Shown piece after piece: positions 9,249-52,305 of a stretch of DNA of 64,000 bases. Location of the stretch: assembly GCA_009729775.1 (NCBI GenBank), contig GCA_009729775.1_4081.1; one strand, given 5' to 3'. Both the position numbers and the translations under genes were made by a program. This DNA comes from Escherichia coli. GTDB lineage: Bacteria; Pseudomonadota; Gammaproteobacteria; Enterobacterales; Enterobacteriaceae. Numbering within the stretch: position 1 is the stretch's first letter; the number at the start of each line of letters is the position of its first letter. The notes below the pieces were generated by a model that ran no database searches, had not been told where the DNA came from, and saw only the letters and a list, made by a program, of their open reading frames with translations.

Positions 9249-10481
9249 TTACTTATACCATTGCATTTCTCTGATATCAATGATAATTTTTGATGCTAAT
9301 TTAATGTTTGGTTTTTTGGGAAGTACTGATTTCTTATATAGAACATCACGAATGTATTGTACTTTATCATCGAAATATTCTAATACTTCTTCATACTTCC
9401 ACTTACCATTACGAATATCCATCAACATTTGTGCATCAGGTCGTTTAACTTGAATAATTCCACTCTGTAATGCTTCTTCTGCACTATTCAAAAGTCTAAT
9501 TGTGTGCATAGCATGTTTGCAATCGAATCCGTGTTGTGATTCTAAAATAGCACGTTTGGCATTACGATTTTCTTTCCATTTATGATAACTTTTCCTATTC
9601 TCACTATTTTCCTGATATTCTTTTTCGTTAAATTTTACAATTAGTTCTGGTTTGGTTTTCAACTCTTCAGTACTACGCTCTTTAGAAAAATAACGCAATG
9701 AACCATCACCATTGATAGTACTTTCATTCGGATTTTTAATAATCGCAAAAATGTTTTCTCCGTAATGAATTAGTTCATAGCCATTATTAAAATTCAATAA
9801 ATTGAAATCACGATCTAGAATTTTATCAGTAGTGTAGTTATGCACTAATCTTACAAAATGATATTGCTTTAATGGATTTTTCGAAACTAACTGCAATGAC
9901 GTATCACGCATATATTTTTCAAAATCAATCTTTTTAGCATTAAATGGATGTAAGTTCGATGTATCTAAACGTTCAACAAGATATTGTGGAAATGAATCAT
10001 ACATCCACGCAAGAACCTCATCGACTGGGTGTTCTTCTAAAATCTCATTTAATCGTTTTTCAGCAATACGCTCTTTATCCATCCAACCGTGATGATTTGT
10101 CATACGCTTAATCTGATTATATGCATATCCAGTGTATGAAAATGCAATCTTGGAACTAAGAAGTTTTTGGTTAAATGAACGAAGATAGTCATAAATTTCA
10201 GTACTTTCAACAATGTGTTCAGGTTCAACCCAAAGTGATTCAAGAATATTAGGGTTAGCTTCAGTGTATAATTTTAAATACTGATTCAACTCATAGAATT
10301 TAGTATCTTCTTCGCTTTTATCAGCTACCTCTTTGACCTTATAGAAGGGTGTAAGAATAAATTCTTTATTAGCAAGAAAAATACCACGATAATCAGTATC
10401 ACTTTCAGGTGTACTGGTTCCGTAGGCTTGTGACCCAGCCAAGTGTTTCACTATTGTTTGTTCAATATATTGGTTATTCAT
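9249..10481 (-). CDS. Pol-beta-superfamily nucleotidyltransferase (410 aa)
   Basis: N-terminal motif AGSQAYGTSTPESDTDYRGIF = GS-x9-SDxD nucleotidyltransferase signature; rest unassigned. Confidence 0.6.
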   Translation of the reverse strand: MNNQYIEQTIVKHLAGSQAYGTSTPESDTDYRGIFLANKEFILTPFYKVKEVADKSEEDTKFYELNQYLKLYTEANPNILESLWVEPEHIVESTEIYDYLRSFNQKLLSSKIAFSYTGYAYNQIKRMTNHHGWMDKERIAEKRLNEILEEHPVDEVLAWMYDSFPQYLVERLDTSNLHPFNAKKIDFEKYMRDTSLQLVSKNPLKQYHFVRLVHNYTTDKILDRDFNLLNFNNGYELIHYGENIFAIIKNPNESTINGDGSLRYFSKERSTEELKTKPELIVKFNEKEYQENSENRKSYHKWKENRNAKRAILESQHGFDCKHAMHTIRLLNSAEEALQSGIIQVKRPDAQMLMDIRNGKWKYEEVLEYFDDKVQYIRDVLYKKSVLPKKPNIKLASKIIIDIREMQWYK

Positions 10482-38442: not shown

Positions 38443-39246
38443 TTAAATTTCAAATACAAATTTAGGATTGTAATCAAAATTCTCACAAGCTCCACTGTAT
38501 GATTCATAGCCTCGTGGATTACAAATGATACGTGTCTTACCAATGTGGTAGTCAAAGCTACTATGAACATGACCATGAATCCAAACATCAGCACCCAAAT
38601 CTTCAATGTACTGATCCATATCGGAACAGTAACAACCATTCAGTGAATCATTTTTATATTTTGGTGAAACACTTTGATAACTTGGTGCGTGATGGGTAAC
38701 CACGATGACCTTGAAATCATTATCATGCATAAAGCGAACTGTGTCAATAGAATTTTTGATAAATTGTTTATCTTTGTGATGCATAAACTCAGTATCATCT
38801 GGTGTCAGTTTCTTACGCCAAGGCTCTGATGTTGTTCCATGACGGATATGTTTGTAATCGTTCATCTTCAGACGAGCATCAAACTTCGTTAAAGAATTAC
38901 CTTTATCGAAGTCTGTCCACAGAGTACTACCAACAAGCAGTACTCCATCCAGCCATACAAATTTGTTTTGCAAAAAGATGAAATTTGGAATCTCATCTTG
39001 CATATCAGACAGTACTTTATGCGTTTTGTGGATATTGGAACCATAGTATTCGTGATTACCGGGAACCAGTACTACATTCTTAAACTGCTTACATAGTGAT
39101 TCGATGCCAGTACGGTAACGACTGCGTTTAACTTCATCGAAGTCCCCAGCAATAATCAGTACTACATCACTGTAATCACCGCTATGGAGGTAATCAGTTC
39201 CACCGTGTACGTCAGATGTTACAACAAATTTCATAATTACCCCCAA
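38443..39246 (-). CDS. calcineurin-like metallophosphoesterase (267 aa)
   Basis: TSDVHGG, GDF, GNHEYY, VTHHAP, GHVH motifs. Confidence 0.7.
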   Translation of the reverse strand: MGVIMKFVVTSDVHGGTDYLHSGDYSDVVLIIAGDFDEVKRSRYRTGIESLCKQFKNVVLVPGNHEYYGSNIHKTHKVLSDMQDEIPNFIFLQNKFVWLDGVLLVGSTLWTDFDKGNSLTKFDARLKMNDYKHIRHGTTSEPWRKKLTPDDTEFMHHKDKQFIKNSIDTVRFMHDNDFKVIVVTHHAPSYQSVSPKYKNDSLNGCYCSDMDQYIEDLGADVWIHGHVHSSFDYHIGKTRIICNPRGYESYSGACENFDYNPKFVFEI

Positions 39247-39253
39247 TAAATGG

Positions 39254-40672: not shown

Positions 40673-40683
40673 TGTATATTCCT

Positions 40684-41886
40684 TTATAGATAATACTTTC
40701 CAATATAAAGTGGATTACTAATTGATAGTTGAACGTGACATGGTTTGTCTTGGTAGTAACGAGTGCTTGATGTTTTGCGTTCATTTGGTGGGAAGAATGG
40801 GGAACGATAGCCATTCCATGTACTAAATGATGAGTGTTCATTAATATCAACATCCATTACCATAATCCCATTATCATCAATTTGAACCGGATATGCACTA
40901 AAGCGTTCAAATTTATCATTATAATGGATATTATAATCTCCACTACGCCCATAATAACTACGCGTTGTATTATTACTTACACCAAAAAATACGCGATATG
41001 TTTGTTCATTATCTTTAGTCATAAATGGTACGTTCTCATTGAAACGTCCATTATTCATAAGATCATCAACATTTATTTCTTCGTATTTAATTTTAAGGTC
41101 TTTTGCTTTAAATGATTTATTGTGTACCAGTACTGGAATGTTAGATTCACCTAATGGGTTATGTCTGTTTGTTCTATAGCTTTGCCAAAATTCATTAGCA
41201 AGTTTAATTTCTTCATCTGCCGTAGTCTTCTTATTCAAGAGTGCACGAGGTTCCAGATTGTAATTATCCAAACGTTGATTCAATGCATAAGTTCCACGAG
41301 TACTGTTAAAAAGTAAATGATAAACTGAACTCTTATCGGGATATGCAAATTCCTTAGTTTTCTTTATACAAATTGCATGTACTTTACCGCAGTAATAGTA
41401 ATCTTCTTTAAGATAAGTGAAACCATCACCAACTTTAAGACCTGCTACAGTTTCTTTTTGTTGTTCTTTTTTATTTTCTTTTTCAACTAACTTAGCAAAC
41501 GTTTTTGTTTTACCATTAATTAATTCTAAGTTATTGTTGAAAAACATTGGGTCTACAAAAACACCTTTGATTATATCGTTATTGATAATTAAATCATTCA
41601 TGTTTTTTGCACTAATCATAAATTCAAATCCTTCTGGGTGACGGATTGTGAAATATGTTTCTCGTGCATGAGTTGTTAATTTATCAACTACACAAAATCC
41701 CGTAGTTGGAACGTTGTCAATATATAACGATGGAAGATTGTTCTTCTTTGCCCAGTACTCTGCTCTCTCTTTCTTTGTTTCAAACGCTTTTGTATGTGAT
41801 TTTGTTGCATCGATAATAAAACCATCAACTTGGTTGTGGTTTACATAGGAACGTGCAACAAATAACTTCTCTGGAAAATCCATCAA
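40684..41886 (-). CDS. hypothetical protein (400 aa)
   Basis: ORF track. Confidence 0.6.
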   Translation of the reverse strand: MMDFPEKLFVARSYVNHNQVDGFIIDATKSHTKAFETKKERAEYWAKKNNLPSLYIDNVPTTGFCVVDKLTTHARETYFTIRHPEGFEFMISAKNMNDLIINNDIIKGVFVDPMFFNNNLELINGKTKTFAKLVEKENKKEQQKETVAGLKVGDGFTYLKEDYYYCGKVHAICIKKTKEFAYPDKSSVYHLLFNSTRGTYALNQRLDNYNLEPRALLNKKTTADEEIKLANEFWQSYRTNRHNPLGESNIPVLVHNKSFKAKDLKIKYEEINVDDLMNNGRFNENVPFMTKDNEQTYRVFFGVSNNTTRSYYGRSGDYNIHYNDKFERFSAYPVQIDDNGIMVMDVDINEHSSFSTWNGYRSPFFPPNERKTSSTRYYQDKPCHVQLSISNPLYIGKYYL

Positions 41887-42302
41887 ATAGTCCTCATTGT
41901 ACTGATTGCTTTTAATGTGTCAAACAATGCACCATATTTTACTTGCATTAGTTGATCACCAGCAGGAAGATTCATACGCATAACAGCCATGTCTTCAATC
42001 ATTTCAGACGTACACAGTACTGCTACACAGGTAATAGCATCATTCAATCCAGCTTCATTGAATTTGGCAAACGGAACTTTTCCCTGTTTGCTGAGGTTGT
42101 TATAATAAGAATTTAACTTATCATGTCCACCAGCATTTAGTACTACAATAGTTTCGTGTTCATTGTACCATTCATCAATAATAGTACTGAAAGCAGTACC
42201 TTCATATTCTTTAATTAGTTTAACACCAGCATGGAATGCTTGAATACCAGCTTGGACACCCTGGCAGTACATATTGGTTAAGCAATATAATTTCATTTCC
42301 AT
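41883..42302 (-). CDS. hypothetical protein (139 aa)
   Basis: ORF track. Confidence 0.55.
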   Translation of the reverse strand: MEMKLYCLTNMYCQGVQAGIQAFHAGVKLIKEYEGTAFSTIIDEWYNEHETIVVLNAGGHDKLNSYYNNLSKQGKVPFAKFNEAGLNDAITCVAVLCTSEMIEDMAVMRMNLPAGDQLMQVKYGALFDTLKAISTMRTI

Positions 42303-42520
42303 ACCTCTTGTTTTTCTACGTAGCCTTTCCCATCACAGTGTGGACAAGCATAAAAGCTGCGGTAATCTTCTGACGGTACTTGTTGTGTTCCATTACATGT
42401 AGGACATACTTTACGTGCACCCGAAATAATACGTTCATGGTGTTCAGCTTGTTTAGCTGAATCAAAAATACGACCATCTTCAGTTTGGTATTTTTCTACC
42501 ATAACTTGAATTACTTTCAT
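42293..42520 (-). CDS. small zinc-ribbon protein (75 aa)
   Basis: CPTC ... CPHC. Confidence 0.5.
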   Translation of the reverse strand: MKVIQVMVEKYQTEDGRIFDSAKQAEHHERIISGARKVCPTCNGTQQVPSEDYRSFYACPHCDGKGYVEKQEVWK

Positions 42521-42530
42521 TTCTATTTCC

Positions 42531-42800
42531 TTATAAAAATGTTAAATCTTCAGTACTTAATTGTGATAATTTACCATCATATTCAATTTCAACATATACA
42601 TTTTGGTCATAAACAGCAACTACACGTTTAATAACTCCAACCTTCACGACATTCTTTTTGTAGTTGAACTCAACTGAACAACCAATAAGTTTATTTGATA
42701 GAATCTCACGTATTTGATTTGCATGATCTTTTAGGATAGAATTAATAGATTTTTTCATAATATATCTATCATTCAAATATTTTTTAACTACATCATGCAT
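42531..42800 (-). CDS. small protein, member of dispersed paralog family (89 aa)
   Basis: core L.....KLIGCSVEF like other ~85-100 aa ORFs. Confidence 0.5.
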   Translation of the reverse strand: MHDVVKKYLNDRYIMKKSINSILKDHANQIREILSNKLIGCSVEFNYKKNVVKVGVIKRVVAVYDQNVYVEIEYDGKLSQLSTEDLTFL

Positions 42801-42805
42801 AATTA

Positions 42806-43564
42806 TTACCTTTTGAAACGATTGAATGAGTACTCATCTTTTTCTTTACGTAAGTATCTCATTCCACCACTTTGTGGAGTAGCGAGAGTTAAGTCACCCG
42901 TCAAGAACTGACTATCAATCCATATGCGATTTCCGTAAATGAGTGGGTCTGTAACTGCTGTATGTCCACTAAAGACACAATGCACTCCATCTAACTTAGG
43001 TGCATAATATGTATTATTAGTTCTACAATAATCGAATGTTTTTCTATCCCACAAGCACTTATCAATTATATCAGCACTAAGTGATTTTGTCCCATTGACA
43101 AATCGTTCCCATGTTGTATATTCCAACGGAACTCCAGCATGAACTAACCCAATCTTCAATCCTCGGTGATTGATTTGGATAATCATAGGGAGATCCTTTA
43201 AGTACTGACGAAAGAATTGAATGCCTGTTCCCCCAACTTCATCAAGGAATTTATCACCACCATTACTTATCCAACAGTGATACCAATCTCGAAGTGTTTC
43301 CGAATCAACGCACATCATCTCATGATTACCAGCAATCATGTAACGATTTTCTCCGAACAAAAATTCAAAAAGGAGCTTTGAATTTTGTTCTCCACGGTCG
43401 ATAATATCACCTACACTGAAAACATAATCATTGTGTGTAATACCAAATTCTTTCACTGTAGCATCCCATAGTTTACCATTACCATGCAAATCACCTACAA
43501 TGTATAAATCTTTATCATCAGGTACGGTTACTTCTAAGAAGTGTTTCATTATTACTCCAACCAT
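42806..43564 (-). CDS. Ser/Thr protein phosphatase, lambda-PPase-like metallophosphatase (252 aa)
   Basis: GDLHGN, GDIIDRG, GNHE motifs; true start probably the internal MKHF. Confidence 0.75.
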   Translation of the reverse strand: MVGVIMKHFLEVTVPDDKDLYIVGDLHGNGKLWDATVKEFGITHNDYVFSVGDIIDRGEQNSKLLFEFLFGENRYMIAGNHEMMCVDSETLRDWYHCWISNGGDKFLDEVGGTGIQFFRQYLKDLPMIIQINHRGLKIGLVHAGVPLEYTTWERFVNGTKSLSADIIDKCLWDRKTFDYCRTNNTYYAPKLDGVHCVFSGHTAVTDPLIYGNRIWIDSQFLTGDLTLATPQSGGMRYLRKEKDEYSFNRFKR

Positions 43565-43803
43565 ATAATATTAGTGTGTTTAGTAACTTGTGTTCCAGCA
43601 AAAGAACCATCTTTAAGATAAGTATTAATTTTAAAACGCCATTCACCCCCACTAATATACATATCAGTAATAATATACTTTCCATACCCTCTGGAGTTTA
43701 TTAATCGTACTTCTTGACCAATATATTTTGGCTTCAGATCATTTATAAAATCATCAGCCAAAGACATAAGATATCGCAAATGTGATAAGTCGGTGTTGAA
43801 CAT
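43552..43803 (-). CDS. small protein, paralog family (83 aa)
   Basis: KPKYIGQEVRLI core. Confidence 0.5.
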   Translation of the reverse strand: MFNTDLSHLRYLMSLADDFINDLKPKYIGQEVRLINSRGYGKYIITDMYISGGEWRFKINTYLKDGSFAGTQVTKHTNIIWLE

Positions 43804-44018
43804 TATTTCTTTCTCTTATATTTGTTAATAATATCTTGGGTAAGTGAAATAAAAATATATACTAACGTTACAGGCCAAATAATAGCCATCAGTGCTGCTG
43901 TTTGGAGATTCATGATAATCATGATTTCATCTTTAAAACAACCCCAATTAAGTACTAGAAAGTTGGTTATAAATGTAACAAATGCTACAAAACCATATAT
44001 TGCAAAAAATGTTATCAT
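43803..44018 (-). CDS. small membrane protein (71 aa)
   Basis: two hydrophobic helices. Confidence 0.45.
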   Translation of the reverse strand: MITFFAIYGFVAFVTFITNFLVLNWGCFKDEIMIIMNLQTAALMAIIWPVTLVYIFISLTQDIINKYKRKK

Positions 44019-44020
44019 AA

Positions 44021-44350
44021 TTATTCCTCATCATCCACTAAAACAAGATAATCCAAACTTAACTCGGTATCTATGTAACAATCACAATTCAAGTACTCAA
44101 TTTCAGCACCTATAGTTCTCCCATTCTTAAATATCTCAATGATTTTCATTCTAGTATTGGGATTAATGTGTTCAATGTCGTATTCGTATTCAGGGTCAAT
44201 ATACTCACTTGTCATACGTTTGATGTATTGTTCCGAATATCGTACAGTTTTACCTATAAGATCATTACTCAACGTCTGATAAAAATCATCTTGAATTTTG
44301 AATAATGACCTATAAAAAATATTATGTTGAATTAGTGGTTTCATTGACAT
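44021..44350 (-). CDS. small protein, paralog family (109 aa)
   Basis: SNDLIGKTVRYS core. Confidence 0.5.
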   Translation of the reverse strand: MSMKPLIQHNIFYRSLFKIQDDFYQTLSNDLIGKTVRYSEQYIKRMTSEYIDPEYEYDIEHINPNTRMKIIEIFKNGRTIGAEIEYLNCDCYIDTELSLDYLVLVDDEE

Positions 44351-44979
44351 TAATCACAACTTCCAGACGATGAACTTGAATCAGAACTAGAGCTATCATA
44401 GGAACAAGAATCAGAGGAAGAACTGCTGTGACGGCTATAATCACTGTAATCATCATTGTTGTAGATTGGTGATGTTACGATTGCTGCTGCGGTCGCTGCC
44501 GTTGCAATTTGTGCAGTATGGTCATGAACACCTAGTTGTGGTTCATCCTTAGATTTACCTTTGTTCTTACCTTTAGTGTAACGAGCTTTCTTTGCAGTTT
44601 TAGTATTTTTCTGTACTTTAGGAGCTTTTGGTTTCACATCTTCAACTACTGGAACTACATTCACTACAACTTTAGGATCAGTTTCTTCAAGTGTATTATA
44701 CACTTTAACTTGCATTTGAACTTCAACTTCTTTAACTTCTTCTTTAACTTCTGGAATAACTGTTTCTGGTGCTGGAGTGATTTTATCAAGTTCTTTAGTA
44801 ATAAAGAAGCTTGTATTTTTCTCACCTAGCATAACAAGAAGACCAATGGCAATCACTGGACTTAGTACTGTACCAAGTACTACATAACCTAGAACACTTC
44901 TGTTATAGTTATATGCAAGCATACCAGAAATAATAATACCGATTACATATGCACTGCTAAGAATAATTGGGGTTAACAT
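44350..44979 (-). CDS. membrane protein with low-complexity linker and Ser/Cys-rich C-terminus (209 aa)
   Basis: two N-terminal TM helices; PKV/KEV-rich repeats; C-terminus SSSSSDSCSYDSSSSDSSSSSGSCD. Confidence 0.55.
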   Translation of the reverse strand: MLTPIILSSAYVIGIIISGMLAYNYNRSVLGYVVLGTVLSPVIAIGLLVMLGEKNTSFFITKELDKITPAPETVIPEVKEEVKEVEVQMQVKVYNTLEETDPKVVVNVVPVVEDVKPKAPKVQKNTKTAKKARYTKGKNKGKSKDEPQLGVHDHTAQIATAATAAAIVTSPIYNNDDYSDYSRHSSSSSDSCSYDSSSSDSSSSSGSCD

Positions 44980-45283
44980 ATTCTACTCCTTTGTATATAA
45001 ATTTACTAACTTCTTCGATGTATAAAGACGTTCCTGAACGTTCATTTAGAACTAACCAAGCACCAAAACCACATCGAATCTCGGATATATGAAACTCTTC
45101 TACACTATAATTTGAATACGCGTTAAATGGACATATTTCATCAGATATACTTACCACATAGTTATTATTAATTGAATCTAACACCTGGGTATTGTATAAA
45201 TTATTAGTACTGAAAATCTGCATTAACGAGCTAGAAAGCATCTCGGTTGTCTTTTCTAATATTGTTAAAAACGAACCATTCAC
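44957..45283 (-). CDS. hypothetical protein (108 aa)
   Basis: ORF track; promoter-like TGATATAAT upstream. Confidence 0.5.
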   Translation of the reverse strand: MNGSFLTILEKTTEMLSSSLMQIFSTNNLYNTQVLDSINNNYVVSISDEICPFNAYSNYSVEEFHISEIRCGFGAWLVLNERSGTSLYIEEVSKFIYKGVEYVNPNYS

Positions 45284-45314
45284 TTCAACTTCTCCCTATT
45301 GGTGATGTAATCAA

Positions 45315-45323
45315 ATTATATCA
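45315..45323 (-). promoter_or_regulatory. extended -10 element TGATATAAT
   Basis: ~32 nt upstream of ATG of 44957..45283. Confidence 0.35.
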
Positions 45324-45340
45324 CCGAATTCTGATACGTC

Positions 45341-45646
45341 TCATGATATTCGCATTTCATCTATATATAATGAACATGATTCAGAATTATCGTCTAAACT
45401 TAAACCTAAATCGACCATTAAACCACAATGCGTTCCCCAGAATTTTTTTATGTATAGTTTTTTGCTACTATTACCTAAATCATAAACATATTCATTTTTA
45501 AACATACTTTTTAATTCTTCACATATACATTTTACTATCTTCATTAATTGATTATGATATTCGTATGGTATCCCATCAAGTTCGTTAATTATTAATGCAA
45601 AACCATTATCATAGTACTTTAGCTTATTGAATGTTTGTATATCCAT
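45341..45646 (-). CDS. hypothetical protein (101 aa)
   Basis: ORF track. Confidence 0.5.
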   Translation of the reverse strand: MDIQTFNKLKYYDNGFALIINELDGIPYEYHNQLMKIVKCICEELKSMFKNEYVYDLGNSSKKLYIKKFWGTHCGLMVDLGLSLDDNSESCSLYIDEMRIS

Positions 45647-45943
45647 TTAATATATAATCTCACTAGCTTCTATTGTGTAGACACCATCATCAGTCATTAA
45701 TCTTACTGCAACTTTAATATTACTAGACATTCGTGTAACTATCAATCCAATAATTATACCATTCTTTAAAGTACCATTATGGTATCTAACTTTTACTTCA
45801 GTTTTATTATCAATTAAGTATCTTCTAATTATGTGTATTTCATTTCTGAATAATTCTAAAAAAGCTTCACTATTTTCTTTATCTGACCCGTCTGAACACC
45901 AGTACAATAAATTTACTTGTTCAAATAATTTTTTTATATTCAT
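45647..45943 (-). CDS. hypothetical protein (98 aa)
   Basis: ORF track. Confidence 0.5.
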   Translation of the reverse strand: MNIKKLFEQVNLLYWCSDGSDKENSEAFLELFRNEIHIIRRYLIDNKTEVKVRYHNGTLKNGIIIGLIVTRMSSNIKVAVRLMTDDGVYTIEASEIIY

Positions 45944-46299
45944 AAAAATCTCACAGATTTAATATTACTGGTTACATGATTTACCCAAGTGTTATCGAAC
46001 TTGTAAACAATTGTATTAAGTGATTTATGAAAATTAACCTCGCACACTAATGCCTTGGAACCATTGATTGTACAGACCGTGGATGGTAAGTTGTTTGCTA
46101 ATATCTCTTTTTCATCTAAACAAAGTGAACTAATACAATCATAATAGAGAGGTTCAAGAACTTTTTCAGTACTGAGAAATTCAAAAGAAAGATCATCTAT
46201 TAGTTTTATGTAATCGAATAAATTATGATAATATTCATTCATTGTAGATCCTTTTAAATTTAGCATTATTAGAATATGTATATGAATGACCAAAATCAT
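45940..46299 (-). CDS. hypothetical protein (119 aa)
   Basis: ORF track. Confidence 0.5.
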   Translation of the reverse strand: MILVIHIHILIMLNLKGSTMNEYYHNLFDYIKLIDDLSFEFLSTEKVLEPLYYDCISSLCLDEKEILANNLPSTVCTINGSKALVCEVNFHKSLNTIVYKFDNTWVNHVTSNIKSVRFL

Positions 46300-46489
46300 T
46301 TACACCATGTACATTTAGTACACCGTCACTGAAATAAATTCGATCAATAGTGAGTTCACGTTTATAATCCCAATCATCATACCAGCACAGAACACGAATA
46401 CCTTTGTACTTTGTAGTTAAATCATTTTCTAATATAGTCAAGTAATCAATATGACTTTTGAATATCTCTAAGTCCTGCTCAAACATCAT
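46235..46489 (-). CDS. small protein, paralog family (84 aa)
   Basis: TTKYKGIRVLCW core. Confidence 0.5.
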   Translation of the reverse strand: MMFEQDLEIFKSHIDYLTILENDLTTKYKGIRVLCWYDDWDYKRELTIDRIYFSDGVLNVHGVNDFGHSYTYSNNAKFKRIYNE

Positions 46490-46746
46490 TGTTCCTCGTA
46501 TAATTCTATATCATCAACTCCAACTTGGCGAATTGCAGTACTTCTGTTGAATGTATTTTTTTCAAACAAACATACTGTTAAACGTATTTCACACTTCAAT
46601 GCACTGTAATAAATCATATCAATAACACCATATGTTTCATACATTTCTACGTATACATTTCGACCTAAATACTTTTCTTCTAAATCAGTAATTAGACTAT
46701 TGATAAGATTACCTATCTGTGTTATATCTGTGTGAAATTTATCCAT
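46486..46746 (-). CDS. small protein, paralog family (86 aa)
   Basis: EEKYLGRNVYVE core. Confidence 0.5.
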   Translation of the reverse strand: MDKFHTDITQIGNLINSLITDLEEKYLGRNVYVEMYETYGVIDMIYYSALKCEIRLTVCLFEKNTFNRSTAIRQVGVDDIELYEEQ

Positions 46747-46991
46747 TATAATAAACCTCTCACATAAAACATTGATGAAAATAGATAATCATTAGTACTT
46801 GTGTTTAGTTGTTTAGAAAAGTTATATTTTTTATCTTTATTTTCGTATAAAGACAATCTATAGAACATTTCTATATTTTCTAAGTATTCTTTTTGTAACA
46901 ACATCTGTGTTTTTACATTCATTATAATATACCTTAAAAGAAAAAGGGACCAACATATGATCCCTTTTGTATTAGAAATTTCCTTCTGCAA
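46746..46991 (-). CDS. hypothetical small protein (start uncertain; track start is TTG inside pseT 3' end)
   Basis: ORF track; probable true start at internal ATG (MNVKTQ...). Confidence 0.35.
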   Translation of the reverse strand: MQKEISNTKGIICWSLFLLRYIIMNVKTQMLLQKEYLENIEMFYRLSLYENKDKKYNFSKQLNTSTNDYLFSSMFYVRGLL

Positions 46992-47904
46992 CTTGCATTA
47001 CTTTCAAGCCAAGTAGCTTACGCCACATGAATACAACTTGATCGCGGTCATCATAAACCTTTTTAACATCGTAATGATCAACCACATTTTTCATGTACAG
47101 GTCGAATTTTACAACATCATCGGGACGTTTATCATCTATGTCTCGCATAAACAATGCATCGTAAGGAATACCCCAATTCTTAAGCCACTGTTCGGTATCA
47201 GCACGACACCCTTCAGTACGCCCACTCATGACGATAATCTTGCGTTTATGAAAAACTGCTTCAGCGATAATAGACAAAATAACTTCTTCATCTGGTGTAT
47301 CCTGAAGAACAGTACTTTCATCGTAAGGATTACGACCCCATTTATGAGCAAGAGTACCGTCAATATCAACGATAACAGCAGCTTCTCGTGAATTACCATA
47401 GTAACCAATGTGCATGGCCTTACTATAATAGTACGTATCTGCCATAGTGTCAATGATATTATCTTGTACTGAACGCTCACGCATGAGGTTACGTTTCTTA
47501 CAAAGTTTTACGAACTCTTTAATCTTAAAGAAAACATGAACATCTGCACCACGATCTTCATTCGGTACAAAATCTTCGTAGAAGTTCTTTTCTTTGTAGT
47601 CGTATTCATTATCTTTAGCCCAACGTTTCCATTCATCACGGAAATGTTGTTTAAGGTTCGTATCGGACACAATGATGTTCCAACCATTCTCTGCTGCTGA
47701 ATTTGCTGCACTGAACTGCATTTTAGTTACGTACTGCTCATTAGCGTCGTTGAATTTGTATGCATCATGTGACCCTGCCATTGATTCTCGAATGTCATCA
47801 CGGTTAATGTTGATAGTCTTCGATTTGGCATTTTTAATTTCTTGAACTGCCCATGTGGTTTTACCACAACCAGGCAACCCAACTGTTAGTGTAATAGTTG
47901 GCAT
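46972..47904 (-). CDS. pseT: polynucleotide 5'-kinase / 3'-phosphatase
   Basis: Walker A GLPGCGKTT; HAD phosphatase motif VIVDIDGTLA; overall resemblance to T4 PseT (from memory) including C-terminal QVAEGNF; AAGGAG RBS. Confidence 0.9.
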   Translation of the reverse strand: MPTITLTVGLPGCGKTTWAVQEIKNAKSKTININRDDIRESMAGSHDAYKFNDANEQYVTKMQFSAANSAAENGWNIIVSDTNLKQHFRDEWKRWAKDNEYDYKEKNFYEDFVPNEDRGADVHVFFKIKEFVKLCKKRNLMRERSVQDNIIDTMADTYYYSKAMHIGYYGNSREAAVIVDIDGTLAHKWGRNPYDESTVLQDTPDEEVILSIIAEAVFHKRKIIVMSGRTEGCRADTEQWLKNWGIPYDALFMRDIDDKRPDDVVKFDLYMKNVVDHYDVKKVYDDRDQVVFMWRKLLGLKVMQVAEGNF

Positions 47905-47916
47905 TATTACTCCTTG

Positions 47917-48231
47917 TTACTCAATGAATTCTACATCTTCGAGTTTGTGCCATCCTCTTGAAAGGTTTCTTGTTCCGTTATTGTATTCAGTGTATACAAA
48001 GCATTCACCATTTACTAAATTACCAATAGCAGTACGCGATACTTTAACATCAAGAATTATAGTACTGAACCATTCTCTGATTGTATGATCCCAGCATTTA
48101 ACTTTACATCCAATCAATGTTTTCTTAAAATCGAAAACGTAATCTTCGACCATTGATTCGACAGATTCTATTAGTTCCTTTTCAATGTACTTTAACTTTT
48201 CGATCCTCTCAAATGCAAGTTCTTTATTCAT
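47917..48231 (-). CDS. small protein, paralog family (104 aa)
   Basis: KKTLIGCKVKCW core. Confidence 0.5.
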   Translation of the reverse strand: MNKELAFERIEKLKYIEKELIESVESMVEDYVFDFKKTLIGCKVKCWDHTIREWFSTIILDVKVSRTAIGNLVNGECFVYTEYNNGTRNLSRGWHKLEDVEFIE

Positions 48232-48237
48232 ATGTCC

Positions 48238-48492
48238 TCAATTATCTAGAACATCCACTATCAAACAAGCTTCAATAACGAAACAATCATCTAATTCAAA
48301 GAGTAATTGATAGTCATCAGAAAACTTCACTTTAGTAATGTAAGCACTTTCAATTCCACCACTATGATAAGAACTATATAAAATACATTTACCTGTATAT
48401 TCCTTACGGATACGACTAAATTCTTCATATAAATGAGTAATAAACGTATCCGCAGTTTTGTTGTAGTATTTTAGGTCACTTACTGTGCTCAT
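48238..48492 (-). CDS. small protein, paralog family (84 aa)
   Basis: RKEYTGKCILYS core. Confidence 0.5.
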   Translation of the reverse strand: MSTVSDLKYYNKTADTFITHLYEEFSRIRKEYTGKCILYSSYHSGGIESAYITKVKFSDDYQLLFELDDCFVIEACLIVDVLDN

Positions 48493-48706
48493 TAACTTTT
48501 CCTACTCCAAATCGTTTGGAGATTTTCACAAGTACAGATTCATCACAACGAATACTAGCTGTATCATTGGATGAACTGTACTTTAATGGGGTCCACTGTA
48601 ATTGAGATTCTTCTAGGAACTTGATACATCTGAAGTAATCTTTCAGAGAAAGAAATTTAACTACTGACATATCCTGAACAATACTATGCTGAACTTCAAC
48701 TTTCAT
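48476..48706 (-). CDS. hypothetical protein (76 aa)
   Basis: ORF track. Confidence 0.45.
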   Translation of the reverse strand: MKVEVQHSIVQDMSVVKFLSLKDYFRCIKFLEESQLQWTPLKYSSSNDTASIRCDESVLVKISKRFGVGKVNEHSK

Positions 48707-48715
48707 ATGAACTCC

Positions 48716-48973
48716 TTATAGTGGATCAAATTTATTTTCACGTTTCGATGTATAGCGAGTTACATCATGTATTCTCGGCTTAACACCTTTTGGTTTCCTT
48801 TTCTTCTTGTATTCAGTACTACTACATCCGAAGGTATTCTCGATTCGTTTCTTACTTATCTTCACACCTTTCATTGAGCGTTTGTGCTGTAATTCATCGA
48901 TTTCTTCTTGTATTTTCCTGAACTCAGTCGGAGAAAGGGAACCGTCATTTTTATACTTAGGTTTAGCCATCAC
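48716..48973 (-). CDS. small basic protein (85 aa)
   Basis: K/R-rich. Confidence 0.5.
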   Translation of the reverse strand: MMAKPKYKNDGSLSPTEFRKIQEEIDELQHKRSMKGVKISKKRIENTFGCSSTEYKKKRKPKGVKPRIHDVTRYTSKRENKFDPL

Positions 48974-49000
48974 TTCTCCTTGTGCTTAGGCTAGATAGTA

Positions 49001-50143
49001 CTAAAAATCCTTTAGTACAATTTTCATGTATTTTATAAGAGTCTCTTTGTAATCAACTTTCTTATTGTTATACATTGCAAAGGCCAAGCCCTGACGATTC
49101 AGTTCATTAGTTAAACACTCCTGAACCTTCATTGCGAATTCCTTTCGCTCCAAGTGCTTGTGTTCCTTGACGAAGCTTTCTACTTCATCTTGTAATGCAT
49201 TATAGCACGAAAATACCAATTGTTCCATTCTTAATATCTTTTGCATAGCATATTCATCAGTACTGAACAATTGTTTTAAATCATCACTAGAACCATTTAA
49301 TACTGCTTCATATAAATGAGAATCAATAATAATACTATCTTTTGTAAGATGTAATGAACTGTACCAGTCAGTCTTTATTTTACACATTGTCCCATTATTT
49401 AGGATGCACACAAAACCCTCAATATCAAGCATTTTATGAACTTCCTCCACGCTTTCACGGAAGGTATTTCGTACCGGAAAAGTGTGATGAATATCTTTTC
49501 CAGTCATATTAGTACTGTACTGTGCAAGACATGGAAACTTATCACGTAGTGCTTTACCACATAGCAACTCACCACTCACACGATGACGAACGTTCAGTAC
49601 AAACAGTTGTTCTACCTGATATGGTAATACAATTCGGTACTCTGGGCTTGTATACTCCATATTAACTGTGTAACCTAAACGTTCCGCTTCGTCGATGTAC
49701 TGATACAAATTCTGGTTCTCGTTAATAAGTCGAGTACTGTTAATCGCATGGTCAGAGTACAATGCAGTATGTGATTTACAACGAATCTCACCATCATTAT
49801 CACGGTAAGTACTGATTACTGAACCATCCAACTTAGGCATCACTACTGCAATGTCATTACATGTGGTGTTGGCAGGGAACATTGTAGCAGGATTCTCATA
49901 AGCATTAAAGAACTTTTTCATAGTACGGGCAGCACAACGAATCATTTCACCTTCTTCATCAATTTCCCACATAGATCCACGGGTTTCTAATGCATTGGGT
50001 TGCATGAAATCAGTATATGATGCTAGTCGGTAACTGAATACACGATACGTGCCACCAGCAGGACTTTTATGATCTACATAAAAGAACGCATCGTTTGTAT
50101 TACATAAGTGCATTAAATCTTCATATATTTGCAAAAGGGTCAT
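49001..50143 (-). CDS. rnlA: RNA ligase 1 (T4 Rnl1-like)
   Basis: N-terminus and KxDG adenylation motif (MPKLDGS) closely parallel T4 RnlA as I recall it; 380 aa; AGAGGT RBS. Confidence 0.9.
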   Translation of the reverse strand: MTLLQIYEDLMHLCNTNDAFFYVDHKSPAGGTYRVFSYRLASYTDFMQPNALETRGSMWEIDEEGEMIRCAARTMKKFFNAYENPATMFPANTTCNDIAVVMPKLDGSVISTYRDNDGEIRCKSHTALYSDHAINSTRLINENQNLYQYIDEAERLGYTVNMEYTSPEYRIVLPYQVEQLFVLNVRHRVSGELLCGKALRDKFPCLAQYSTNMTGKDIHHTFPVRNTFRESVEEVHKMLDIEGFVCILNNGTMCKIKTDWYSSLHLTKDSIIIDSHLYEAVLNGSSDDLKQLFSTDEYAMQKILRMEQLVFSCYNALQDEVESFVKEHKHLERKEFAMKVQECLTNELNRQGLAFAMYNNKKVDYKETLIKYMKIVLKDF

Positions 50144-50448
50144 TTTATTACCTCTATATCTACATCAGTTCCATAATATGATATTAATCCATCATCAGAT
50201 TCACACTGAATAGACAACTCAGATTCATAGTATGTTACTTTATTCACTGTTAGTACGTGTTCTTCAATTTTTCCAGAAAAATAATTCATTTCACGCACAC
50301 GAACTTTAGTTCCTTTAGGTAGTTCATCTGAGATTTTTTGAACAAGTTCATAAGCAGCCTGTTCAAGTGTGTACAGTAATTGTAATCTATCTTGAATATT
50401 CATATTATTTCCACCAACTTGTATCACGTCCATTAGACAAAGATTCAT
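50140..50448 (-). CDS. small protein, paralog-family-like (102 aa)
   Basis: ELPKGTKVRVRE core. Confidence 0.5.
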   Translation of the reverse strand: MNLCLMDVIQVGGNNMNIQDRLQLLYTLEQAAYELVQKISDELPKGTKVRVREMNYFSGKIEEHVLTVNKVTYYESELSIQCESDDGLISYYGTDVDIEVIK

Positions 50449-51094
50449 TGTACTGATGCCTAAAATTAGTTTTTGGATTATTGTTCATAGTACTAATAAA
50501 ATCAAATTTAACATTCTCTTGAATATATTTTTTAACACTATCTTTAAATTTAATAGTACTGAAGTCTAAATCTAGATGTTCATACAATACCGGATGACAA
50601 AACTCATGTGTACGCAACGATGGCATAGTATCCTTAATGTATTGCACAGTGTTAATCATTGCATTGTATTCAGGCATAGCACGCATCATCATTAGCTGAA
50701 AGTGTTCTTCCTCTGACATTGACTCATCCAAATCAATAACGACTTCATCATTTTTAGAGTCATAAACTTTAATGGTACTCTTGGTTGGATCAAGCATCGC
50801 CCACTCTGGATACAGGCATGTTTTCCAAAAAGGATTATTGCACTGAAACATACTAATGAGATTTTGATCTTTATCAAAAATAGCAAATCCAAGATCCGAA
50901 CTTGGTTGTACTTCACATACACAAATATCGTAAGACGAGTCTTCAGTACTGAGTGAACCAACTACATTTGATATATGTGAATATGGAGTTTCTCTTGACT
51001 CCAACTGAAATGTACTTTCAATTCGATTGATTTGTGGATGTAATGTAATTACACCCCTTAGTACATATAAAATTCTATCTAAATCTTTAATCAA
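50405..51094 (-). CDS. hypothetical protein (229 aa)
   Basis: ORF track. Confidence 0.55.
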   Translation of the reverse strand: MIKDLDRILYVLRGVITLHPQINRIESTFQLESRETPYSHISNVVGSLSTEDSSYDICVCEVQPSSDLGFAIFDKDQNLISMFQCNNPFWKTCLYPEWAMLDPTKSTIKVYDSKNDEVVIDLDESMSEEEHFQLMMMRAMPEYNAMINTVQYIKDTMPSLRTHEFCHPVLYEHLDLDFSTIKFKDSVKKYIQENVKFDFISTMNNNPKTNFRHQYNESLSNGRDTSWWK

Positions 51095-51669
51095 AATTCT
51101 ATCCCCGTATCGGTTAATTTCGTTCCGTCCATGTACTTAACAGTTATTTCAATGCGTCGATCAGTACTCAATTTTTGAAGATCATTGTAGTACAATTTAA
51201 ATTCTTCAAAGAACTCAAGTGGTGGAATATCGTATAAAGTACTAATCTGGAAGTGCTCAGGTAATCCAAATTCCAATATATCAATCTTAGGCATAAGTCC
51301 ATCGGCTGCTGCACCTTCTGGAGTACTGCTGTCTGCTACATAAAACATAGAATTACCATGACGCTGGATAACGAATATGCAATCATCTTCACTTACATAA
51401 ATCATATTTCCAAGGTATGGATCGTTATCACACCAATTATCATGGACGAGTTGTTCAACTTGAAGTAAATCTTTTATAATTCCCTGACCACTATCGTCAA
51501 CTAGAATATGTAAACCAGAACAATCTTTGCTCAACCAGCGGTATCTTGCATCACATCCTGATTCCATAAATGGATATTTTGAAAAATCCATATCAGTACC
51601 ATTATAAAACCAATCGTACCACTCGTTACGCATAGTAATCAGCTTAGTACTTAATTCTAATACATTCAT
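51091..51669 (-). CDS. hypothetical protein (192 aa)
   Basis: ORF track. Confidence 0.55.
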   Translation of the reverse strand: MNVLELSTKLITMRNEWYDWFYNGTDMDFSKYPFMESGCDARYRWLSKDCSGLHILVDDSGQGIIKDLLQVEQLVHDNWCDNDPYLGNMIYVSEDDCIFVIQRHGNSMFYVADSSTPEGAAADGLMPKIDILEFGLPEHFQISTLYDIPPLEFFEEFKLYYNDLQKLSTDRRIEITVKYMDGTKLTDTGIEF

Positions 51670-51676
51670 TTTAGTT

Positions 51677-51979
51677 TTATCCTCTTAATTTAATAGTACT
51701 GGCTGGATATTCTACCAAAGTATTATCAGGTAATCCTATACAGTAATAAGGGAAATACCCCATCTTTATATTAATACCAATTAAAATTCCTGTTTTATAT
51801 GAAGTATTAATTCCATAGTAATCGTCTATATCAACAGCAAGTCCATATAATGATATGTTACAATCCTTGATATATCGGTCAAACATTTTATACATTGCAG
51901 AATATAAAGTTCCATTGGATTGTCTCACCAAATCAGCCAACATTTTGATAGTACTGTTAATTAAATCTATACTGAACAT
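51677..51979 (-). CDS. hypothetical protein (100 aa)
   Basis: ORF track. Confidence 0.5.
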   Translation of the reverse strand: MFSIDLINSTIKMLADLVRQSNGTLYSAMYKMFDRYIKDCNISLYGLAVDIDDYYGINTSYKTGILIGINIKMGYFPYYCIGLPDNTLVEYPASTIKLRG

Positions 51980-51992
51980 CTTTGTACCTGCG

Positions 51993-52016
51993 AAAAAAGA
52001 CCAGCAAACGCTGGCC
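51993..52016 (-). terminator. terminator-like hairpin plus U6
   Basis: stem CCAGC/GCTGG; A6 on plus 51993-51998; downstream of stop of 52024..52305. Confidence 0.45.
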
Positions 52017-52023
52017 TAAGAAT

Positions 52024-52305
52024 TTAAATTATTTCATAAAGACAATATACACCATCAACACCAGCATCAGGAAAATCAACATAGAAATTCACACTAACAG
52101 TGTCGTAATCTATATCAGTGATTCGTCCGGTTTTACCTACACTTTTTACAAATATATCAGTACCAAGATACACAAACTCAAATTCGTCAGCATACTCTTT
52201 TATGATATCTGCGAACCAACAACCACACCTAGGTTCTGTGTTAATAATTTCAAGATATAATGTAATATATTGTTCGTATGTCCATGTGTGTAGATAAAAA
52301 TCCAT
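52024..52305 (-). CDS. hypothetical protein (93 aa)
   Basis: ORF track. Confidence 0.5.
   Translation of the reverse strand: MDFYLHTWTYEQYITLYLEIINTEPRCGCWFADIIKEYADEFEFVYLGTDIFVKSVGKTGRITDIDYDTVSVNFYVDFPDAGVDGVYCLYEII

What the first reader, a model, noticed from the sequence alone, without database searches (positions are those of the whole stretch)
46972..50143. T4-type tRNA repair pair (PseT and RnlA) separated by four small ORFs
Both enzymes are confidently recognisable. In T4 they repair tRNA cleaved by host anticodon nucleases (PrrC-type). Their presence implies this phage encounters tRNA-targeting defences. Here the two genes are interrupted by four small ORFs, two of which belong to the dispersed small-protein family, and could include accessory factors.
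Basis: established knowledge. Interest (0 to 1): 0.45.

Follow-up and report, generated by a model that had tools for sequence, protein, structure and literature searches.

The report
Known phage RNA-repair gene pair
This stretch of a giant E. coli phage (121Q/Asteriusvirus type) carries the same two enzymes that phage T4 uses to mend transfer RNAs cut by bacterial defences. The pair is real but already annotated and discussed for this phage group; the only fresh point is that two tiny unknown genes always sit between the two enzymes.

Summary
On the minus strand, 46972-47904 encodes a full-length T4-type polynucleotide kinase-phosphatase (Pnkp/PseT). 49001-50143 encodes a T4 RnlA-family RNA ligase 1 that includes the C-terminal domain. 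Four real small genes lie between them.

The window is an Asteriusvirus jumbo coliphage, 98.5-98.8% identical to 121Q and slurp01. RefSeq already names both enzymes in 121Q, a paper on the relative phAPEC6 already suggests countering the Prr system, and a jumbo-phage review covers Rnl1 plus kinase-phosphatase repair. The core finding is therefore already known.

New details:
- T4 itself has four genes between rnlA and pseT, in the same order and on the same strand.
- The two small ORFs next to pseT (104 and 84 aa, weak members of a divergent small-protein family) vary within the genus, so they are poor accessory candidates.
- The two next to rnlA (an 84/85-aa basic helical protein and a 76-aa ββαββα protein) sit between the enzymes in every RaK2-like lineage examined.
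- The 76-aa protein is more conserved than either enzyme. Its function is unknown.
- An RlaP RNA-repair nucleotidyltransferase lies about 37 kb away.

The parts
49001..50143 (-). rnlA: T4-family RNA ligase 1 (380 aa). It has the nucleotidyltransferase domain plus the T4_Rnl1_C domain. It is the first gene of the cassette in transcription order.
   Evidence: Pfam PF09511 scores 4.8e-15 and PF20819 scores 6.8e-17. NCBIfam TIGR02308 scores 294 bits against a 242 cut-off. PDB 2c5u scores 2.9e-57. The residues aligned to T4 R54, K75, F77, K99, D101, G102, E159, E227, G228, K240 and K242 are conserved; T4 K119 aligns with H125.
48716..48970 (-). b85: a basic 84-aa protein (85 aa if read from the GTG at 48973), PHROG 15306. 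The model is mostly one long helix with a Lys/Arg-rich tail. It is conserved immediately downstream of rnlA in RaK2-like jumbo phages.
   Evidence: PHROG 15306 scores 1e-41. tblastn finds it in 62 phage records. It sits next to rnlA in fHe-Yen9-04, GAP32, XaC1, RaK2 and metagenomic contigs. The AlphaFold2 model has pLDDT 77.8 and pTM 0.45, with helix 14-45. An AAGGAG lies 5 nt before the ATG. dN/dS is 0.12.
48476..48706 (-). p76: a 76-aa protein, PHROG 14730, with a ββαββα fold. It is the best-conserved gene of the cassette and always lies between rnlA and pseT. Function unknown.
48238..48492 (-). s84: an 84-aa lineage-specific small gene. Its start overlaps the p76 stop by 17 nt. It is a weak member of a divergent small-protein family.
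   Evidence: It is present only in the 11 records that cover 100% of the query and is absent from PBECO4 and SD-2_S15. It has no PHROG or Pfam hit. The leave-one-out profile gives E=0.0046 as the top non-seed hit. dN/dS is 0.25.
47917..48231 (-). s104: a 104-aa variable small gene, PHROG 31355. It is a weak member of the same divergent family.
   Evidence: PHROG 31355 scores 1.6e-57. PBECO4 carries a homologue only 34% identical, and SD-2_S15 lacks it. The leave-one-out profile gives E=0.0032. dN/dS is 0.18.
46972..47904 (-). pseT: a T4-type bifunctional polynucleotide 5'-kinase / 3'-phosphatase (310 aa). It is the last gene of the cassette.
   Evidence: Pfam HAD_PNKP scores 1.9e-43 and AAA_33 scores 4.6e-14. 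PDB 1ltq scores 3.7e-38 over the full length. It is 100% identical to 121Q gp443. The P-loop G9-T17, D36, R39, DIDGT 180-184, S227, R229, D262, K266, D285 and D286 are conserved.
46942..46968 (-). An intrinsic-terminator-like hairpin directly after the pseT stop codon: an 11-bp stem followed by a T-run.
   Evidence: It was found by the terminator scan and read in the sequence as AAAAGGGATCA-TATGT-TGGTCCCTTTT followed by TCTTTT. The phage G17 record lists a terminator somewhere under the same 4-kb match.
9249..10481 (-). A distant companion gene: an RlaP-family (RNA-ligase-associated Pol-beta) nucleotidyltransferase of 410 aa. It is not linked to the cassette.
   Evidence: Pfam PF10127 RlaP scores 5.4e-16, 59.5 bits against a cut-off of 23. 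The family is discussed as an RNA-repair partner of RNA ligases in jumbo phages in PMC7824862.

Best explanation
The region is the RaK2-like jumbo-phage version of the T4 RNA 'heal and seal' pathway.

After a host ribonuclease cuts a tRNA anticodon loop, it leaves a 2',3'-cyclic phosphate and a 5'-OH. Pnkp (46972-47904) removes the 3' phosphate with its DxDxT phosphatase domain and phosphorylates the 5' end with its P-loop kinase domain. Rnl1 (49001-50143) then adenylylates itself on Lys104, transfers AMP to the 5' phosphate and reseals the tRNA. Its C-terminal domain would supply the preference for tRNA.

What is shown and what is inferred:
- Shown here: the protein families, the domain architecture, the conserved catalytic residues and the gene order.
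- Inferred from T4 biochemistry: the chemistry and the tRNA substrate.

The six genes are packed with gaps or overlaps of 27 nt or less and end at a terminator, so they are probably co-transcribed. That is also an inference.

Two of the four intervening genes, b85 and p76, belong to a conserved four-gene core: rnlA-b85-p76-pseT. The other two, s84 and s104, are lineage-specific insertions from a fast-evolving small-gene family and are unlikely to be needed for repair.
For: **Family assignment.**
- Pnkp.
- Rnl1. The NCBIfam equivalog score is above its trusted cut-off.

**Catalytic residues.**
- Pnkp: K15, D36, R39, D180, D182, S227, R229, D262, K266, D285 and D286 match T4 K15, D35, R38, D165, D167, S211, R213, D254, K258, D277 and D278.
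- Pnkp: the KRNxxR motif holding the T4 R126 equivalent is kept after a one-residue shift of the alignment.
- Rnl1: K104, D106, G107, E163, E242, G243, K255 and K257 match T4 K99, D101, G102, E159, E227, G228, K240 and K242.

**Synteny and co-occurrence.**
- T4 has the same order and strand, rnlA ... pseT.
- The enzymes occur together in all 71 RaK2-like phage records.
- The cassette order is conserved in four further genera and three metagenomic lineages.

**Gene packing.** RBSs and spacing were read directly. A terminator follows pseT.

**Selection.** All six genes are under purifying selection.

**Literature.**
- Rnl1 plus kinase-phosphatase is described as the jumbo-phage RNA repair system (PMC7824862).
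- A Prr-countering role was suggested for the relative phAPEC6 (PMC7247149).

**Further repair capacity.** An RlaP nucleotidyltransferase lies elsewhere in the window.
Against: - No activity, substrate or host nuclease was tested, and none can be tested with these tools.
- T4 K119 aligns with His125 here and in most RaK2-like ligases; only XaC1 keeps Lys. That K119 is essential in T4 is my recollection of the mutational literature, and I could not verify it (one search found nothing).
- T4 RnlA is also annotated as the tail-fibre attachment catalyst, and its N-terminal domain is essential on K-12 without any known anticodon nuclease. Retention of rnlA alone therefore does not prove a repair role.
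- The window holds no tRNA gene and nothing that identifies the host nuclease being countered.
Confidence: 0.85

Rival explanations
1. The pair is kept mainly for functions other than countering anticodon nucleases. Rnl1 would act as a tail-fibre attachment factor, as T4 gp63 does. Pnkp would be a general nucleic-acid end-processing enzyme. tRNA repair would be at most a side activity.
For: - RefSeq names the 121Q and T4 proteins 'RNA ligase and tail fiber protein attachment catalyst'.
- HIDEN-SEQ found the T4 rnlA N-terminal domain essential on E. coli K-12, while the C-terminal domain tolerated insertions.
Against: - The C-terminal domain is retained (Pfam 6.8e-17) and the whole gene is under strong purifying selection (dN/dS 0.07).
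- rnlA is strictly co-inherited and linked with pseT across all 71 RaK2-like records and in T4.
- The same study found a PseT orthologue that matters in clinical isolates.
- The two roles are not mutually exclusive.
Confidence: 0.2
2. The 310-aa protein is a zeta-toxin-like kinase involved in lysis or cell-wall inhibition. This is how the orthologue is annotated and discussed for phage Sharanji.
For: - GenBank names the Sharanji orthologue WNN14797.1 'zeta toxin', and the paper discusses it under lysis proteins.
- Pfam Zeta_toxin gives a weak N-terminal hit of 21.7 bits.
Against: - The Zeta_toxin score is below the family cut-off of 22.3 and covers only the generic P-loop region 2-102.
- HAD_PNKP scores 148.5 bits, and the full length aligns to T4 Pnkp structure 1ltq at 3.7e-38 with all phosphatase and kinase residues present.
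Confidence: 0.02
3. b85 and p76 are dedicated accessory subunits of the repair machinery. For example, a basic RNA-binding helper and an adaptor that couples Pnkp to Rnl1 or to the damaged tRNA.
For: - They always lie between rnlA and pseT, while the surrounding small ORFs turn over.
- p76 is more conserved than either enzyme and equally constrained (dN/dS 0.08).
- The p76 stop overlaps the pseT start by 13-44 nt in Eneladusvirus, Mimasvirus, XaC1 and metagenomic lineages. This suggests translational coupling.
- p76 has invariant polar residues in its two hairpin regions.
- b85 is strongly basic.
Against: - All the carriers are one phage clade, so co-occurrence may reflect common descent only.
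- T4 repairs tRNA without homologues of either protein. p76 shows no similarity to PseT.1, and its family has only three real clusters worldwide.
- There is no informative fold match, no domain fusion and no interaction evidence.
- The proteins could equally be unrelated early-gene products or inhibitors of a host factor.
Confidence: 0.3
4. All four intervening ORFs are functionally unrelated passengers. They would be typical small early genes of jumbo phages that happen to sit in a permissive intergenic slot, as alc and the pseT.1-3 genes do in T4.
For: - T4 also has four unrelated genes in this slot, including alc and two genes annotated as spanin-like.
- s84 and s104 come and go within one genus.
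- RaK2 has three different small ORFs in the slot.
- No small ORF has a functional domain hit.
Against: This fits s84 and s104 well. It does not explain the positional constancy and high conservation of p76 and b85 across genera.
Confidence: 0.45

Closest known systems
Phage T4 Pnkp (PseT) and Rnl1 (RnlA, gp63) tRNA repair pathway against the PrrC anticodon nuclease
   Same: - Same two protein families with the same domain architectures, at about 35% identity each.
- Conserved catalytic residues.
- Same gene order and strand, with four genes in between.
   Different: - The intervening genes are unrelated. T4 has alc, pseT.3, pseT.2 and pseT.1; here they are b85, p76, s84 and s104.
- Pnkp carries an insertion of about 15-20 aa in the kinase domain, and Rnl1 an insertion of about 19 aa.
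- T4 K119 is replaced by His.
- No host nuclease partner is known for this phage group.
Orthologous cassette of RaK2-like jumbo phages: 121Q gp438-443, PBECO4 gp125-129, RaK2 rnlA/pseT, GAP32 080-084, fHe-Yen9-04 g060-g064
   Same: - Pnkp is 100% identical and Rnl1 99.2% identical to 121Q.
- The rnlA-b85-p76-...-pseT core is the same in all of them.
   Different: Only the number of lineage-specific small ORFs between p76 and pseT differs (0 to 3). Some genera also carry an extra ORF of about 75 aa between b85 and p76.
Other RNA repair systems: RtcB ligase, bacterial Pnkp/Hen1, and Rnl2 with RlaP nucleotidyltransferase
   Same: - Same overall logic of healing broken RNA ends and then sealing them.
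- An RlaP-family nucleotidyltransferase is present elsewhere in the window. RlaP is described as an RNA-ligase partner in jumbo phages.
   Different: - The ligase here is the ATP-dependent Rnl1 type, not RtcB or Rnl2.
- The phosphatase is of the HAD/DxDxT type, not the calcineurin type found in bacterial Pnkp.
- RlaP lies about 37 kb away, not adjacent.

Membership tests
T4-type polynucleotide kinase-phosphatase (Pnkp/PseT) | Two-domain architecture: an N-terminal P-loop 5'-kinase and a C-terminal HAD (DxDxT) 3'-phosphatase in one polypeptide of about 300 aa. | tested here: met
   AAA_33 covers residues 5-157 and HAD_PNKP covers 175-310. The protein aligns end to end with 1ltq and with PHROG 505 over 1-310.
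T4-type polynucleotide kinase-phosphatase (Pnkp/PseT) | Kinase active site: P-loop GxxGxGK[ST], the general-base Asp (T4 D35), and Arg38 and Arg126. | tested here: met
   G9-LPGCGKT-T17, D36 and R39 are present. The T4 R126 equivalent is R142 in a KRNxxR motif once the automatic alignment is shifted by one residue (sequence read).
T4-type polynucleotide kinase-phosphatase (Pnkp/PseT) | Phosphatase active site: DxDGT with a nucleophile Asp (T4 D165), plus S211, R213, D254, K258, D277 and D278. | tested here: met
   D180-I-D182-G-T184, S227, R229, D262, K266, D285 and D286 are present.
T4-type polynucleotide kinase-phosphatase (Pnkp/PseT) | 5'-OH kinase and 2',3'-cyclic/3'-phosphatase activity on RNA ends. 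| not testable with these tools
   This needs an enzyme assay.
T4 RnlA-family RNA ligase 1 | Score above the curated equivalog threshold. | tested here: met
   NCBIfam TIGR02308 scores 294 bits against a cut-off of 242.25. PHROG 562 scores 3.8e-109.
T4 RnlA-family RNA ligase 1 | Covalent nucleotidyltransferase motifs: I (KxDG with the adenylylated Lys), III, IV (EG) and V (KxK). | tested here: met
   K104-L-D-G107, E163, E242-G243 and K255-x-K257 align with T4 K99, E159, E227/G228 and K240/K242.
T4 RnlA-family RNA ligase 1 | Rnl1-specific essential residues, recalled from the T4 mutational literature: R54, K75, F77 and K119. | tested here: inconclusive
   R55, K77 and F79 are conserved. T4 K119 aligns with H125, with a Lys two residues upstream at K123. 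The K-S-H triplet is shared by most RaK2-like ligases. The list of essential residues is from memory; one search found no accessible source.
T4 RnlA-family RNA ligase 1 | A C-terminal all-helical domain, specific to Rnl1 and linked to tRNA specificity. | tested here: met
   Pfam PF20819 T4_Rnl1_C scores 6.8e-17 over residues 268-379.
T4-type tRNA restriction-repair system (counter to anticodon nucleases) | Pnkp and Rnl1 encoded together in one phage and genetically linked. | tested here: met
   The two genes are 1.1 kb apart on the same strand in T4 order. They co-occur in all 71 RaK2-like records.
T4-type tRNA restriction-repair system (counter to anticodon nucleases) | A phenotype: mutants are restricted on hosts carrying an anticodon nuclease, and cleaved tRNA is religated in vivo. 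| not testable with these tools
   I found no experimental data for Asteriusvirus in the papers searched. The phAPEC6 paper only speculates.
Zeta toxin (UDP-GlcNAc kinase), as annotated for the Sharanji orthologue | Score above the Pfam Zeta_toxin gathering threshold, with coverage of the zeta fold. | tested here: not met
   The score is 21.7 bits against a cut-off of 22.3. It covers only residues 2-102, against profile positions 16-123 of 199.

The most novel reading that the evidence does not exclude
In RaK2-like jumbo phages the healing-and-sealing pair may really be a four-component module: rnlA, b85, p76 and pseT.

The clade-restricted 76-aa ββαββα protein is more conserved than the enzymes and, in several genera, translationally coupled to pseT. 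It and the basic helical 84-aa protein would be obligatory partners. They might recruit broken tRNA, bridge Pnkp and Rnl1, or neutralise the attacking nuclease. That would be an elaboration absent from T4.
Probability: 0.3. Interest if true: 0.5.

Novelty: already known. Interest (0 to 1): 0.17.

Why it matters
As it stands the finding adds little. The two enzymes are textbook T4 proteins, they are annotated in the near-identical phage 121Q, and the anti-Prr idea has been voiced for a sister phage.

Three points have practical value:
- It corrects a published mis-annotation, 'zeta toxin' for the Pnkp orthologue of phage Sharanji.
- It picks out two conserved, uncharacterised small proteins as the only reasonable accessory candidates.

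If those two proved to be repair cofactors or nuclease inhibitors, they would extend a 40-year-old paradigm. They might also yield new reagents for RNA ligation or new anti-defence proteins.

Tried and rejected
1. **p76 as a homologue of T4 PseT.1** (same size, same position before pseT). BLASTP finds no alignment at all. Rejected.
2. **A natural p76-Pnkp fusion in Xanthomonas phage XbC2**, suggested by the annotation under hit H78. The p76 gene is simply unannotated there and overlaps the pseT start. There is no fusion.
3. **b85 as a resolvase-like helix-turn-helix protein**, because of its 'FGxSSTxYKK' motif. Pfam gives no significant hit even at E up to 10. AlphaFold2 gives one long helix 14-45 and no compact HTH. 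Not supported.
4. **Function of p76 from its fold.**
   - In the viral BFVD library only the RaK2 orthologue matches.
   - The afdb50 library was unavailable.
   - A profile search of 1.84 billion representatives found three real clusters, plus six weak, multi-stretch matches in much longer proteins that I judged spurious.
5. **Paralogy of the small ORFs.** BLASTP found nothing significant. Naive iterative HMM search pulled in a reversed decoy at 6.7e-5, so only the leave-one-out result is quoted, and only as weak.
6. **Other RNA features.** There are no tRNA or tmRNA genes and no Rfam family in the window.
7. **Other repair genes next to RlaP or flanking the cassette.** Pfam found nothing.
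8. **Verifying the essentiality of Rnl1 Lys119 from the literature.** The search returned no paper.

Full report
**1. What is there**

The window is AT-rich (about 33% GC). The ORF lists and the matching 121Q annotation place nearly all its genes on the minus strand, and GC skew is negative throughout.

Between 46972 and 50143 the ORF map shows six tightly packed minus-strand genes. In transcription order they are:
- a 380-aa ORF, 49001-50143;
- an 85-aa ORF, 48716-48973;
- a 76-aa ORF, 48476-48706;
- an 84-aa ORF, 48238-48492;
- a 104-aa ORF, 47917-48231;
- a 310-aa ORF, 46972-47904.

The sequence shows a Shine-Dalgarno motif before each small gene. For the 85-aa ORF, the ATG at 48970 is a better-placed start than the GTG at 48973. 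Gaps and overlaps between neighbouring genes are at most 27 nt. An 11-bp hairpin followed by a T-run lies directly after the stop of the last gene.

**2. Which genome**

Megablast of 46500-50500 gives 98.8% identity to Escherichia phage slurp01 and 98.5% to 121Q. It finds 36 matching records, all Asteriusvirus-type jumbo phages of E. coli or Salmonella. The 310-aa protein is 100% identical to 121Q gp443.

RefSeq already annotates 121Q gp438 as 'RNA ligase and tail fiber protein attachment catalyst' and gp443 as 'polynucleotide kinase'. The four genes between them are annotated as hypothetical proteins.

**3. The two enzymes**

*The 310-aa protein.*
- It matches Pfam HAD_PNKP (1.9e-43) and AAA_33 and PHROG 505 end to end.
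- It matches the T4 Pnkp crystal structure 1ltq over residues 2-310 at 3.7e-38.
- Aligned with T4 PseT taken from the T4 genome, it is 35% identical.
- It keeps the P-loop (K15/T16), D36, R39, the DIDGT nucleophile motif (D180/D182), S227, R229, D262, K266 and D285/D286.
- The T4 R126 equivalent sits in a conserved KRNxxR motif once the automatic alignment is shifted by one residue.

*The 380-aa protein.*
- It matches Pfam RNA_lig_T4_1 and T4_Rnl1_C.
- It passes the NCBIfam equivalog threshold for 'T4 RnlA family RNA ligase', with 294 bits against a cut-off of 242.
- It matches T4 Rnl1 structure 2c5u at 2.9e-57.
- It keeps the adenylylation lysine (K104 in KLDG), E163, E242/G243 and K255/K257, plus R55, K77 and F79.
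- The one departure is that T4 K119 aligns with His125. Most RaK2-like ligases share this K-S-H triplet. I recall K119 as essential in T4 but could not verify that.

Both genes are under strong purifying selection against phage ph0011, with dN/dS of 0.07-0.09.

**4. Comparison with T4**

The T4 record shows rnlA-alc-pseT.3-pseT.2-pseT.1-pseT on one strand. T4 thus has the same order, and also four genes between ligase and kinase. The intervening genes are not homologous between the two phages. In particular, the 76-aa protein has no detectable similarity to the 75-aa PseT.1.

**5. The four small genes**

All four are real genes. They are annotated in relatives, have ribosome-binding sites and show dN/dS of 0.08-0.25. 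They fall into two classes.

*Class a: the two next to pseT (s104 and s84) are variable.*
- 121Q-type genomes have both.
- PBECO4 has a single homologue of s104, only 34% identical, and no s84.
- Salmonella phage SD-2_S15 has neither.
- RaK2 has three different small ORFs in the same slot.
- By eye these proteins share an N-terminal helix followed by a 'Y-x-G-K-x-V' strand.
- BLASTP does not detect the relationship.
- A profile of ten hand-picked members recovered each left-out member as the best non-seed hit, at E of about 0.003-0.005, with reversed decoys at 0.03 or worse.
- It also picked up further small ORFs at 44021-44350 and 42531-42800.
- The 'dispersed family' is therefore plausible but weakly supported. 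Its members here are dispensable within the genus.

*Class b: the two next to rnlA (b85 and p76) are conserved.*
- tblastn finds p76 in 71 phage records.
- That is the same number, with the same genus breakdown, as the RaK2-type Rnl1 and Pnkp.
- b85 is found in 62 records. The Klebsiella versions are too diverged to be detected.
- The order rnlA-b85-(optional ORF of about 75 aa)-p76-(0-3 extra ORFs)-pseT holds in Eneladusvirus, Alcyoneusvirus, Mimasvirus, Xanthomonas phage XaC1 and three metagenomic lineages.
- One metagenomic contig carries exactly the four-gene core.
- In several lineages the p76 stop overlaps the pseT start by 13-44 nt.
- p76 is 60-70% identical across genera, against 49-64% for Rnl1 and 42-63% for Pnkp. 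Its dN/dS of 0.08 equals that of the enzymes.

**6. What b85 and p76 might be**

*p76.*
- It has 18 invariant positions. Many of them lie in or beside the loops joining strands 1-2 and 3-4 of the model: H7, S8, Q11, D12, Y43, S44, S45, S51 and R53. E56 opens the second helix.
- AlphaFold2 gives a confident ββαββα model with pLDDT 83.7.
- The viral structure library returns only the RaK2 orthologue.
- A profile search of 1.84 billion representative proteins finds just three genuine clusters.
- The family is therefore confined to this phage clade.

*b85.*
- It is very basic and is modelled as one long helix (residues 14-45) followed by a Lys/Arg-rich tail, with pTM 0.45.
- It has no Pfam match.

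Function cannot be assigned for either protein. Positional constancy, high conservation and apparent translational coupling make them the only credible accessory candidates. All carriers belong to one clade, so shared descent alone could explain the co-occurrence. I put the accessory hypothesis at about 0.3.

**7. Wider repair context**

- About 37 kb away, 9249-10481 encodes an RlaP-family nucleotidyltransferase (Pfam 5.4e-16).
- Iyer et al. describe RlaP as functioning alongside RNA ligases in jumbo phages. They predict that it restores nucleotides removed by nucleases such as RloC (PMC7824862).
- The window contains no tRNA gene and no Rfam family.
- The related phage Sharanji encodes seven tRNAs (Thr, Asn, Met, Arg, Gly and two Ser) elsewhere in its genome, and none for lysine.
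- If the complement is similar here, a PrrC-type attack on tRNA-Lys could not be bypassed by substitution and would need repair. This is an inference.

**8. What is already published**

- The jumbo-phage review describes ATP-grasp RNA ligases (Rnl1/Rnl2) working with kinase-HAD phosphatases as a common repair system.
- The Sharanji paper lists the Pnkp orthologue as a 'zeta toxin' under lysis proteins.
- The Sharanji reading is contradicted here. The Zeta_toxin hit is sub-threshold and limited to the P-loop, while HAD_PNKP scores 148 bits.
- A recent transposon study found the T4 rnlA N-domain essential on K-12 and the C-domain dispensable. It also found that a PseT orthologue matters in clinical isolates.
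- That study is a reminder that RnlA has a second role, and that the repair function depends on the host.

**9. Verdict**

The modest new points are:
- the T4-like four-gene spacing;
- the dispensability of the two family-type ORFs;
- the conserved rnlA-b85-p76-pseT core, with two uncharacterised, clade-restricted small proteins.

I score interest at 0.17. The most novel reading not excluded is that p76 and b85 are obligatory repair cofactors or nuclease antagonists, with probability about 0.3 and interest about 0.5 if true.

Noticed in passing
window 9249-10481 (-): A 410-aa RlaP-family (RNA-ligase-associated Pol-beta) nucleotidyltransferase, Pfam PF10127 at 5.4e-16. It is annotated only as 'nucleotidyltransferase' in 121Q. 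It is a third RNA-repair component, unlinked to the pseT/rnlA cassette. Its neighbours have no Pfam hits.
   Followed up: partly
window 28332-29771 (-): A 479-aa fusion of an N-terminal PIN domain (8.1e-20) and a PhoH-like ATPase (7.3e-44). It is a potential RNA-processing enzyme of unknown role in the phage.
   Followed up: no
window 30461-31767 (-): Two adjacent genes: a Nudt16-like Nudix hydrolase (8.3e-19) and a Sir2-family protein (3.7e-20). This pairing suggests NAD+/ADP-ribose or RNA-cap metabolism, possibly counter-defence.
   Followed up: no
window 38443-43564 (-): An ATP-dependent DNA ligase (39254-40672) lies next to a calcineurin-like phosphoesterase (38443-39246). A second calcineurin-like phosphoesterase is at 42806-43564.
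   Followed up: no
window about 42500-52300 (-): A run of many 80-110-aa genes with a shared look: an N-terminal helix, then a 'Y-x-G-K-x-V' strand. Examples are 42531-42800, 43552-43803, 44021-44350, 46235-46489, 46486-46746, 47917-48231, 48238-48492 and 50140-50448. Profile evidence for one divergent family is weak but consistent. The fold and function were not determined.
   Followed up: partly
L011 (Escherichia phage Sharanji OR545507) 673-1605: The Pnkp orthologue WNN14797.1 is annotated 'zeta toxin' and discussed as a lysis-related protein in PMC11895373. The evidence here shows it is a T4-type polynucleotide kinase-phosphatase. Some T4-like records carry the same label (for example H104 and H115).
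   Followed up: yes
L017 (Xanthomonas phage XbC2 OP292654) 2501-2725: The p76 homologue is present but not annotated in this record. It overlaps the start of the polynucleotide kinase gene.
   Followed up: yes
window 46972-48492 versus 48476-50143: Within Asteriusvirus the pseT side of the cassette is much more variable than the rnlA side. Only 3 records have Pnkp at 99% identity or more, against 22 for Rnl1. The indels of small ORFs also map to the pseT side. This suggests a recombination or mosaic boundary near pseT.
   Followed up: partly
window 49769-49771 (His125 codon of rnlA): T4 Rnl1 Lys119 is replaced by His in this ligase and in most RaK2-like ligases. Xanthomonas phage XaC1 retains Lys. 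The functional consequence is unknown.
   Followed up: partly
window 50140-50448 (-): The ORF upstream of rnlA overlaps the rnlA start by 4 nt. 121Q annotates it from an internal ATG (264 nt), while other records use the longer 309-nt form, so the true start is ambiguous. It is also a weak member of the small-protein family.
   Followed up: no
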